This document shows, in pieces, positions 1-514 of a DNA stretch of 514 bases. The stretch lies in NCBI RefSeq assembly GCF_003334765.1, contig NZ_QOWT01000117.1; one strand, given 5' to 3'. Position numbers and translations under genes: made by a program. How positions within the stretch are numbered: the stretch's first letter is position 1; every line of letters starts with the position of its first letter. Under the pieces are notes generated by a model, which was not told the DNA's origin, did not search any database, and was given only the letters and a program-made list of their open reading frames with translations. Origin of the DNA: Escherichia coli. Its GTDB lineage: Bacteria; Pseudomonadota; Gammaproteobacteria; Enterobacterales; Enterobacteriaceae.

Positions 1-233
1 ACCGTCAGAGCTAATAATTTGTCGACTGCATCGCCATCCGCAAGGTAACTGTAGAAGTGTCTTAAGAGAGTGCATTGCGTTGCCCATAACTTAAAACAGC
101 TTAGATCCTTGTTCGCCAGAAAGTTTCATCCATTTTCTTCCACCCAGGTTGCGGAAGAACCACTTTTCATCCGTCGTTGACAGATGTGAAGTATGCGGGA
201 GAAAAAGTGAATATCTAACTGTAATAACTCAGA

Positions 234-251
234 CCGGTACGAGTACTCGGG
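234..251 (+). repeat. Copy 1 of an 18-bp imperfect direct repeat, CCGGTAC-N4-ACTCGGG (ccggtacgagtactcggg)
   Basis: Matches 423-440 at 15 of 18 positions; mismatches are confined to the central 4-5 nt. Contains the 10-bp perfect palindrome cgagtactcg (240-249). Confidence 0.45.
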
Positions 252-276
252 ACGTCTACAATCATTCAGGGCAAAG

Positions 277-285
277 TGCTAAAAT
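277..285 (+). promoter_or_regulatory. Candidate extended -10 element (TGcTAAAAT) on + strand
   Basis: TG at 277-278, one base, then taaaat (280-285), which matches TATAAT at 5 of 6. The only -35-like hexamer is tctaca (255-260, 4 of 6) at a poor 19-bp spacing. If active, transcription would start near 292-294 and read into the pyrimidine-rich tract. This assumes a bacterial sigma70 context that is not established. Confidence 0.2.
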
Positions 286-291
286 TTCTCT

Positions 292-301
292 ATCCCGGGA
301 T
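292..301. other. 10-bp perfect palindrome atcccgggat (possible dimeric protein-binding site or hairpin)
   Basis: The sequence equals its own reverse complement and is centred on a CCCGGG core. A related half-site tcccgg recurs at 321-326. A single 10-bp palindrome is near chance expectation (about 0.5 per 514 bp), so confidence is low. Confidence 0.25.
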
Positions 302-392
302 GCCCCTACCAACGCAGCACTCCCGGAGATATCATTACAGCTCTGCAACTGATTTCCGCGACTGAACCGCTCAGTTCCTATCCTTCCAGTTG

Positions 393-411
393 CCCTCCTG
401 CCCCCCCTCCC
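393..411 (-). other. G-quadruplex-type motif on minus strand (gggagggggggcaggaggg), with C-rich i-motif complement on plus strand
   Basis: Plus strand 393-411 is ccctcctgccccccctccc. Its reverse complement gives four G3 tracts with loops of 1, 1 and 5 nt, matching the G3+N1-7 x4 pattern. A further C4 at 421-424 could serve as an alternative tract. The motif is seen directly; folding in vivo is not demonstrated. Confidence 0.6.
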
Positions 412-422
412 TGCTGTATACC

Positions 423-440
423 CCGGTACCACAACTCGGG
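423..440 (+). repeat. Copy 2 of an 18-bp imperfect direct repeat, CCGGTAC-N4-ACTCGGG (ccggtaccacaactcggg)
   Basis: Matches 234-251 at 15 of 18 positions, 189 bp downstream. The flanking cccg (422-425) and cggg (437-440) are self-complementary, giving a 4-bp GC stem. Confidence 0.45.
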
Positions 441-504
441 CAGCACTTTTCCCCCTCATAATCTTCGTCACACATCACACAAAACCACTTTCTCACCTTC
501 ACCG

Positions 505-510
505 TATAAT
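505..510 (+). promoter_or_regulatory. Consensus TATAAT hexamer at the right window edge, no recognisable -35
   Basis: Exact tataat at 505-510. Upstream at 17+/-1 bp is aaaacca (no TTGACA similarity), and there is no TG at -15/-14. Any transcript or gene it served would lie beyond the window. Confidence 0.15.
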
Positions 511-514
511 CCGG

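What the first reader, a model, noticed from the sequence alone, without database searches (positions are those of the whole stretch)
240..301. Two 10-bp perfect palindromes within 60 bp (cgagtactcg and atcccgggat)
240-249 and 292-301 each equal their own reverse complement, and the first lies inside copy 1 of the 18-bp repeat. Perfect 10-bp palindromes are expected about 0.5 times per 514 bp (hand estimate), so two close together is mildly unusual. They could be binding sites for dimeric helix-turn-helix regulators or targets of a restriction-modification system, or they could be chance.
Basis: seen in the sequence. Interest (0 to 1): 0.25.

Follow-up and report, generated by a model that had tools for sequence, protein, structure and literature searches.

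The report
Two chance palindromes in spacer DNA
The two 10-base palindromes are really there, but they sit in a non-coding leftover between a small zinc-ribbon gene and an insertion sequence in an E. coli genomic island, occur at the rate chance predicts, and one is broken in about 29% of strains that carry this DNA, so the finding is ordinary.

Summary
Both palindromes are confirmed: CGAGTACTCG at 240-249 and ATCCCGGGAT at 292-301. The window matches E. coli chromosomes at 100%, in the island next to cobU that carries Ag43 and cbeA/cbtA. Positions 1-183 are the end of an ISL3-family insertion sequence. Positions 371-514 are the 3' end of a zinc-ribbon gene on the minus strand. The palindromes lie in the 187-bp non-coding stretch between them (184-370).

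Chance accounts for them. Shuffles give 0.37 ten-base palindromes per 514 bp, and 200 kb of the same genome gives 0.47. About 7% of real 514-bp windows hold two or more, and 1.6% hold two this close. That extrapolates to roughly 150 such pairs per genome.

Neither 10-mer recurs in the 200 kb sampled or, allowing one mismatch, above chance in the 50-kb island stretch. No promoter-like or terminator-like site, Rfam match or unusual RNA fold was found.

Across about 2,840 carrier genomes, palindrome 1 lies in the most polymorphic part of the stretch. The T247C allele, which breaks it, is exact in 829 genomes. Palindrome 2 is nearly invariant, but so is most of this 95-100% identical region. It can pair with 320-330 as a hairpin, which is no better than hairpins in shuffled sequence.

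Verdict: a real observation with no supported function.

The parts
1..183 (-). Transposase-proximal end of an ISL3-family insertion sequence. The start of the transposase pseudogene runs from 87 down to 1 on the minus strand. The terminal inverted repeat is at 141-183.
   Evidence: RefSeq annotation under the 100% match. A 43-nt inverted repeat pairs L001 6418-6460 with 8141-8183, which is window 141-183. Plasmid copies of the insertion sequence match the window only up to about 182-187.
184..370 (.). Non-coding, single-copy stretch of 187 bp between the end of the insertion sequence and the stop codon of the zinc-ribbon gene. Both palindromes lie here.
   Evidence: No feature is annotated here in any listed genome. 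It is present once per genome in 2,849 of 5,426 E. coli genomes at 95-100% identity. No Rfam match, no promoter-like or terminator-like site, fold z-scores of -0.10 and +0.27, and no similarity to the neighbouring zinc-ribbon proteins.
240..249 (.). Palindrome 1, CGAGTACTCG (core AGTACT).
   Evidence: Confirmed. No local structure. Broken to CGAGTACCCG by T247C in L004, L005, L007 and L009, and that allele is exact in 829 genomes. Further polymorphisms lie at 251 and 252.
292..301 (.). Palindrome 2, ATCCCGGGAT (core CCCGGG).
   Evidence: Confirmed. The 38 nt around it are identical in 2,784 of 2,841 carrier genomes. One genome (L011) has a 1-bp deletion inside CCCGGG.
292..331 (-). Imperfect hairpin. 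Palindrome 2 pairs with the near-copy CTCCCGGAGAT at 320-330. On the minus strand it lies about 40 nt downstream of the zinc-ribbon stop codon.
   Evidence: As minus-strand RNA it folds at -21.9 kcal/mol, with a local z-score of -2.8. After scanning the whole window on both strands, 19% of shuffles contain an equally good 59-nt hairpin. There is no U-tract directly after the stem and the terminator scan found nothing.
371..514 (-). 3' end of the zinc-ribbon gene (WP_001221619.1, 135 aa, Pfam DUF7828 plus Zn_ribbon_11). The stop codon is at 373-371.
   Evidence: Annotation, translation and Pfam domains of homologues.
423..440 (.). Copy 2 of the 18-nt repeat, CCGGTACCACAACTCGGG. It lies inside the coding sequence and encodes P-S-C-G-T-G, part of a CxxC motif.
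   Evidence: A 15-of-18 direct repeat is reached in 2.8% of shuffles. Other strains carry CCGGTACCACAACGCGGG or CCAGTACC... here, which lowers the match.

Best explanation
The two palindromes are chance occurrences in a 187-bp stretch of non-coding DNA with no detected function. That stretch is what remains downstream of a zinc-ribbon gene after an ISL3-family insertion sequence landed next to it, in the E. coli genomic island beside cobU. No protein-binding, restriction-modification or RNA-structure role is needed to explain them.

Shown: their presence, their expected frequency, their position outside any promoter-like site, the absence of other copies, and the polymorphism that breaks palindrome 1.

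Inferred: absence of function. This rests on negative evidence.
For: Frequency:
- Shuffles give 0.37 ten-base palindromes per 514 bp, with P(two or more) = 0.055 and P(two within 52 nt) = 0.012.
- In 200 kb of the same genome the density is 0.47 per 514 bp. 7.2% of windows hold two or more, 1.6% hold a close pair, and there are 6 close pairs in all.
- Counts of 6-bp and 8-bp palindromes in the window are also unremarkable (10 against 6.4 +/- 2.4, P = 0.11; 3 against 1.5, P = 0.20).

Context:
- The palindromes lie between a stop codon and the end of an insertion sequence.
- There are no promoter-like or terminator-like sites, no Rfam family, and whole-stretch fold z-scores near 0.

Recurrence:
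- Each 10-mer occurs once in 200 kb, only here.
- One-mismatch copies in the 50-kb island stretch are at chance: 2 against 0.73 expected, and 2 against 1.51 expected.
- The stretch is single-copy per genome, so it is not a dispersed repeat.

Conservation:
- The 38 nt around palindrome 1 match the window exactly in only 708 of 2,842 genomes. The figures are 91%, 98% and 68% for three other 38-nt segments of the same stretch.
- The T247C allele, which breaks the palindrome, is exact in 829 genomes.
Against: - A pair this close is nominally uncommon (about 1-2% of windows).
- Palindrome 2 is identical in 98% of carriers, and it forms a -21.9 kcal/mol stem-loop with a nearby near-copy of itself, about 40 nt after a stop codon.
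- Palindrome 1 is intact in roughly 70% of carriers.
- No homologue of the stretch from another species was found, so conservation could only be judged within E. coli, where divergence is too low to detect selection.
- Only 200 kb, not a whole genome, was counted.
Confidence: 0.85

Rival explanations
1. Palindrome 2, together with its near-copy at 320-330, forms a stem-loop in the 3' untranslated part of the mRNA of the zinc-ribbon operon (minus strand). It would act as a weak terminator or as a barrier to 3' exonucleases. Palindrome 1 would still be chance.
For: The hairpin at 292-331 folds at -21.9 kcal/mol as minus-strand RNA, with a local z-score of -2.8. It starts about 40 nt after the stop codon at 373-371. 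The segment is identical in 98% of carriers. A UUUU run lies 8 nt after the stem.
Against: After correcting for the choice of position, 19% of shuffled windows hold an equally stable 59-nt hairpin. There is no U-tract directly after the stem, and the terminator scan found none. No covariation is available. The 1-bp deletion in L011 is not compensated. A perfect palindrome next to a near-copy of itself pairs with it automatically, so the hairpin is not independent evidence.
Confidence: 0.08
2. One or both palindromes are operators for a dimeric DNA-binding regulator, for example the helix-turn-helix protein encoded about 5 kb away in the island.
For: The dyad symmetry is perfect over 10 bp. The island encodes a small helix-turn-helix regulator.
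Against: The two sequences are unrelated to each other. They lie downstream of a gene rather than at a promoter, and no promoter-like site exists in the window. There are no further copies in the 50-kb island stretch above chance. Palindrome 1 is broken in 829 genomes.
Confidence: 0.03
3. The palindromes are restriction-modification targets: AGTACT (ScaI type) and CCCGGG (SmaI/XmaI type), as I recall those recognition sites.
For: Both cores are classical 6-bp recognition sequences (seen in the sequence; enzyme names from memory).
Against: Any 514-bp window holds several 6-bp palindromes (10 here against 6.4 +/- 2.4 expected, P = 0.11). Restriction-modification sites act genome-wide, not as one local pair. 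The 10-bp extension has no meaning for such enzymes. Neither 10-mer is enriched or otherwise notable in 200 kb. No restriction-modification gene is annotated in the 50-kb stretch.
Confidence: 0.02
4. The stretch 184-370 is the decayed remnant of a third, tandem zinc-ribbon gene. Palindrome 1 would then be inherited coding sequence (copy 1 of the 18-nt repeat, matching the CxxC-encoding copy 2).
For: There are two tandem paralogous zinc-ribbon genes immediately upstream. The 18-nt repeat matches at 15 of 18 positions, reached in 2.8% of shuffles. Copy 2 encodes PSCGTG and copy 1 would encode PSTRTG.
Against: tblastn of both zinc-ribbon proteins against the stretch gives only 7-20 residue matches, with E of 0.1 or worse in a 187-bp database. 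The DNA-level comparison gives nothing beyond the 18-mer. The repeat match is lower in other strains.
Confidence: 0.02

Closest known systems
Background short palindromes in bacterial DNA
   Same: The density (0.47 per 514 bp in this genome), the lack of recurrence, the lack of positional logic and the polymorphism all match the background.
   Different: Two fall within 62 bp, as in about 1.6% of windows. This is uncommon but expected about 150 times per genome.
Intrinsic (Rho-independent) terminators
   Same: A G+C-rich stem-loop (292-331, minus strand) lies shortly after a stop codon.
   Different: There is no U-tract adjoining the stem, the scan does not call it, and its stability is not above shuffled sequence once the position is not pre-chosen.
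Repetitive extragenic palindromes (REP/BIME) of E. coli
   Same: Palindromic sequence in an intergenic position downstream of a gene.
   Different: REP elements occur in hundreds of copies per genome (from established knowledge). This stretch is single-copy, and neither 10-mer recurs in 200 kb.
Operators of dimeric helix-turn-helix regulators
   Same: Perfect dyad symmetry.
   Different: The palindromes are only 10 bp, the two differ in sequence, they are not at a promoter, there are no other copies in the island, and one is broken in 29% of carriers.

Membership tests
Intrinsic terminator | Stable G+C-rich stem-loop downstream of a stop codon | tested here: inconclusive
   The stem-loop at 292-331 folds at -21.9 kcal/mol, about 40 nt after the stop codon. 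However, 19% of shuffled windows hold an equally good hairpin.
Intrinsic terminator | Run of U directly after the stem | tested here: not met
   The sequence after the stem on the minus strand is AGAGAAAUUUUAGC. The terminator scan found 0 sites.
Operator of a dimeric regulator | Dyad-symmetric site overlapping or next to a promoter | tested here: not met
   Dyad symmetry is present. There is no promoter-like site in the window, and the sites lie between a stop codon and the end of an insertion sequence.
Operator of a dimeric regulator | Conservation of the site, and usually further copies in the regulon | tested here: not met
   T247C breaks palindrome 1 in 829 genomes. One-mismatch copies in the 50-kb island stretch are at chance.
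Operator of a dimeric regulator | Binding by a protein | not testable with these tools
   This needs gel-shift, DAP-seq or ChIP-seq experiments.
Restriction-modification target | Cognate methyltransferase or endonuclease in the genome, and methylation of the motif | not tested
   No restriction-modification gene is annotated in the 50-kb stretch. The whole genome and methylome data were not examined.
Restriction-modification target | Genome-wide bias (avoidance or enrichment) of the motif | tested here: inconclusive
   Each 10-mer occurs once in 200 kb against about 0.19 expected. The sample is too small to measure bias, but there is no enrichment.
REP/BIME-type dispersed palindromic repeat | Many copies per genome | tested here: not met
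   The stretch 188-370 has a median of 1 and at most 2 places per genome.
Structured RNA family (Rfam) | Match to a covariance model at or near the gathering score | tested here: not met
   The only hit is a snoRNA model at 15.4 bits against a gathering score of 42, E = 0.55, at 434-500 and not over the palindromes.

The most novel reading that the evidence does not exclude
The 292-331 stem-loop, built around palindrome 2, is a functional 3'-end element (terminator or stabiliser) of the uncharacterised operon of a YagK/YfjJ-type 'inovirus Gp2 family' gene plus two zinc-ribbon genes. Alternatively, it is a recognition hairpin for the Gp2-like protein, as origins are for rolling-circle initiators.
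Probability: 0.06. Interest if true: 0.3.

Novelty: not a real feature. Interest (0 to 1): 0.04.

Why it matters
It matters little. The result removes a candidate: two short palindromes that looked mildly unusual are background-level sequence in a decaying spacer of a widespread E. coli genomic island. Had they been functional they would have been an ordinary operator or terminator. The only open question nearby is what the Gp2-family plus double zinc-ribbon gene module does, and the palindromes do not bear on that.

Tried and rejected
1. Homologues from other species, to test conservation. The genome-contig scan with the zinc-ribbon protein returned one truncated contig that lacks the downstream region. 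A viral-contig scan with a 20-mer from the stretch returned nothing. Contigs encoding 72-76% identical proteins (L004, L005, L007) turned out to be the same E. coli locus. The 65% homologue (L006) has an unrelated downstream region followed by an AlpA gene.

2. Remnant of a duplicated zinc-ribbon gene. Rejected, because there is no significant protein or DNA similarity beyond the 18-mer.

3. Structured RNA. No Rfam hit. Whole-stretch fold z-scores are about 0 on both strands. The local hairpin is not significant after correcting for scanning.

4. Promoter or terminator. None found.

5. Dispersed repeat. Rejected, because the stretch is single-copy.

6. Defence-system context. There are no PADLOC hits for the neighbouring genes. 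PHROGs gave only families of unknown function.

7. Literature. A search for YfjJ/YagK gave nothing bearing on this locus.

8. The other side of the L002 deletion junction. It was not found in any fetched locus.

Full report
**Observation.** The window reads CGAGTACTCG at 240-249 and ATCCCGGGAT at 292-301. Each equals its own reverse complement and neither extends to 12 bp. Palindrome 1 lies inside copy 1 (234-251) of an 18-nt direct repeat whose second copy is at 423-440, with 15 of 18 positions matching.

**Chance.**
The uniform expectation is 0.49. 20,000 dinucleotide-preserving shuffles of the window give 0.37, with P(two or more) = 0.055 and P(two with starts within 52 nt) = 0.012.
- As an empirical control I took four 50-kb stretches of the genome that matches the window at 100% (NZ_AP021935.1). 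They hold 184 perfect 10-bp palindromes, or 0.47 per 514 bp.
- In that sample 7.2% of 514-bp windows hold two or more, and 1.6% hold two as close as here. There are 6 such close pairs in 200 kb, which extrapolates to about 150 per genome.
- Counts of 6-bp and 8-bp palindromes in the window are also ordinary (P = 0.11 and 0.20).
- A feature that turns up in 1-2% of windows, and was selected after reading the sequence, is not evidence of function.

**What the DNA is.**
- The window is 100% identical to many E. coli chromosomes. At least 80% of it is present in 2,820 of 5,426 complete genomes.
- It lies in the island next to cobU. That island also carries a YeeP-like GTPase, Ag43, yeeS, yeeT and cbeA/cbtA.
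- Positions 1-183 are the end of an ISL3-family insertion sequence. Its transposase pseudogene starts at 87 on the minus strand, and its 43-nt terminal inverted repeat is at 141-183. Plasmid copies of this insertion sequence match the window only to about 182-187.
- Positions 371-514 are the 3' end of a 135-aa zinc-ribbon gene on the minus strand (Pfam DUF7828 plus Zn_ribbon_11).
- That gene follows a paralogue that overlaps it by 13 nt, and a YagK/YfjJ-type 'inovirus Gp2 family' gene.
- Both palindromes therefore lie in the 187-bp stretch 184-370. This is downstream of a stop codon and outside the insertion sequence.
- The stretch carries no annotated feature in any listed genome and is single-copy (median 1, at most 2 places per genome).

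**Tests for function.**
- No sigma-70-like promoter or intrinsic-terminator-like site exists in the window on either strand.
- Rfam gives one meaningless sub-threshold hit elsewhere in the window.
- The stretch folds no better than shuffles on either strand (z = -0.10 and +0.27). The neighbourhood of palindrome 1 has no structure.
- Palindrome 2 can pair with a near-copy of itself, CTCCCGGAGAT at 320-330. This gives a -21.9 kcal/mol hairpin on the minus-strand RNA about 40 nt after the stop codon, with a local z-score of -2.8.
- When the best 59-nt hairpin anywhere in the window is compared with the best in shuffled windows, 19% of shuffles do as well. The stem is also not followed by a U-tract.
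- Each 10-mer occurs only once in the 200 kb sampled. With one mismatch allowed, the 50-kb island stretch holds 2 matches of each, against 0.73 and 1.51 expected.
- The two palindromes are unrelated in sequence, so they cannot be two sites for one regulator.

**Conservation.**
- No homologue of the stretch from another species could be obtained, so only E. coli polymorphism is available.
- The table gives the share of carrier genomes identical to the window, for 38-nt segments:

| Segment | Contains | Genomes identical to the window |
|---|---|---|
| 188-225 | control | 91% |
| 226-263 | palindrome 1 | 25% |
| 278-315 | palindrome 2 | 98% |
| 316-353 | control | 68% |

- Palindrome 1 thus sits in the most variable part of the stretch.
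- Aligned examples show three alleles. The window allele is exact in 708 genomes.
- T247C gives CGAGTACCCG, which breaks the palindrome. It is exact in 829 genomes.
- G251A lies just outside the palindrome and accounts for about 1,290 genomes.
- A further variant, A252G, and a 1-bp deletion inside CCCGGG of palindrome 2 occur in L011.
- A common allele that destroys palindrome 1 argues against constraint. The near-invariance of palindrome 2 is not distinguishable from the general 95-100% identity of the region.

**Other ideas.** The 18-nt repeat suggested that the stretch might be a decayed third zinc-ribbon gene, since copy 2 encodes the PSCGTG of a CxxC motif. Neither protein-level nor DNA-level comparison finds anything beyond the 18-mer. 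A 15-of-18 repeat is reached in 2.8% of shuffles, and the match is lower in other strains. I treat it as unproven and probably chance.

**Comparison with known kinds.**
- The palindromes behave like background short palindromes.
- They fail the defining features of an intrinsic terminator (no U-tract).
- They fail those of an operator (not at a promoter, not conserved, not recurrent).
- They fail those of a REP-type repeat (single copy) and of any Rfam family.
- The restriction-modification reading cannot be fully tested without methylome data. However, a local pair of different 6-bp cores is what any sequence contains.

**Verdict.** I put 0.85 on chance. I put about 0.08 on the weaker idea that the palindrome 2 hairpin has a role at the 3' end of the zinc-ribbon operon transcript. 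The remainder is spread over the operator, restriction-modification and gene-remnant readings. Interest is very low.

Noticed in passing
window 141-191; L001 6410-8191: The ISL3-family insertion sequence (about 1,766 bp, 43-nt imperfect terminal inverted repeats, transposase with an internal stop) has no matching 8-bp target duplication: AGACCATA on one side and ATGTGAAG on the other. Its two flanks are unrelated (a gamma-glutamyltransferase fragment against the zinc-ribbon downstream stretch). This points to a rearrangement or deletion mediated by the insertion sequence. The same junction is present in about 2,820 E. coli genomes, so it is old and fixed in this island.
   Followed up: partly
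window 247-252: Three of the five polymorphic sites seen in the 187-bp stretch fall within 6 bp: T247C, G251A and A252G. The first two are each carried by hundreds to more than a thousand genomes. This is a local cluster of variation in an otherwise near-invariant region, and its cause is unknown.
   Followed up: partly
L002 4001-4060 (window ~240): In strain CUVET18-789 the sequence is collinear with the window up to about position 240 (ACCGGTAC) and then continues as CCGGGTAAACG... into a 5'-truncated RdcB-family gene followed by a patatin-like phospholipase gene. The zinc-ribbon and Gp2-family genes are deleted. The breakpoint abuts palindrome 1. Microhomology (CCGGTACC / CCCGGG) is possible but the other parent sequence was not found.
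   Followed up: partly
L001 8371-9996 (minus strand): This is an uncharacterised three-gene module: a YagK/YfjJ_C 'inovirus Gp2 family' gene, then two paralogous DUF7828 plus Zn_ribbon_11 genes that overlap by 13 nt. There is no PADLOC match, and PHROGs gives only a family of unknown function for the Gp2-like protein. In a 65%-identical relative (L006) the pair of zinc-ribbon genes is followed by an AlpA gene instead of the insertion sequence.
   Followed up: partly
window 395-396 (gap in A2 columns 475-477): The window's zinc-ribbon gene lacks 3 bp relative to the other five full-length sequences aligned (A2: GCCCTCCT---GCCCCCCC against GCCTTCCTGCAGCCCCCCC). This gives a 135-aa rather than a 136-aa protein, next to a run of seven C.
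   Followed up: no
L003 (JAIJJM010000559.1); P0013, P0041: Near-identical (92-98%) copies of this E. coli zinc-ribbon gene are recorded under 'Collinsella sp.' and 'Veillonella sp.' metagenome-assembled genomes and under 'Pseudomonas aeruginosa'. They sit on short contigs and most likely reflect mis-binning or contamination rather than transfer.
   Followed up: no
window 234-251 and 423-440: The 18-nt direct repeat (15 of 18) links the non-coding stretch to the CxxC-encoding part of the zinc-ribbon gene. It is nominally uncommon (2.8% of shuffles), but no wider similarity supports a duplication.
   Followed up: yes
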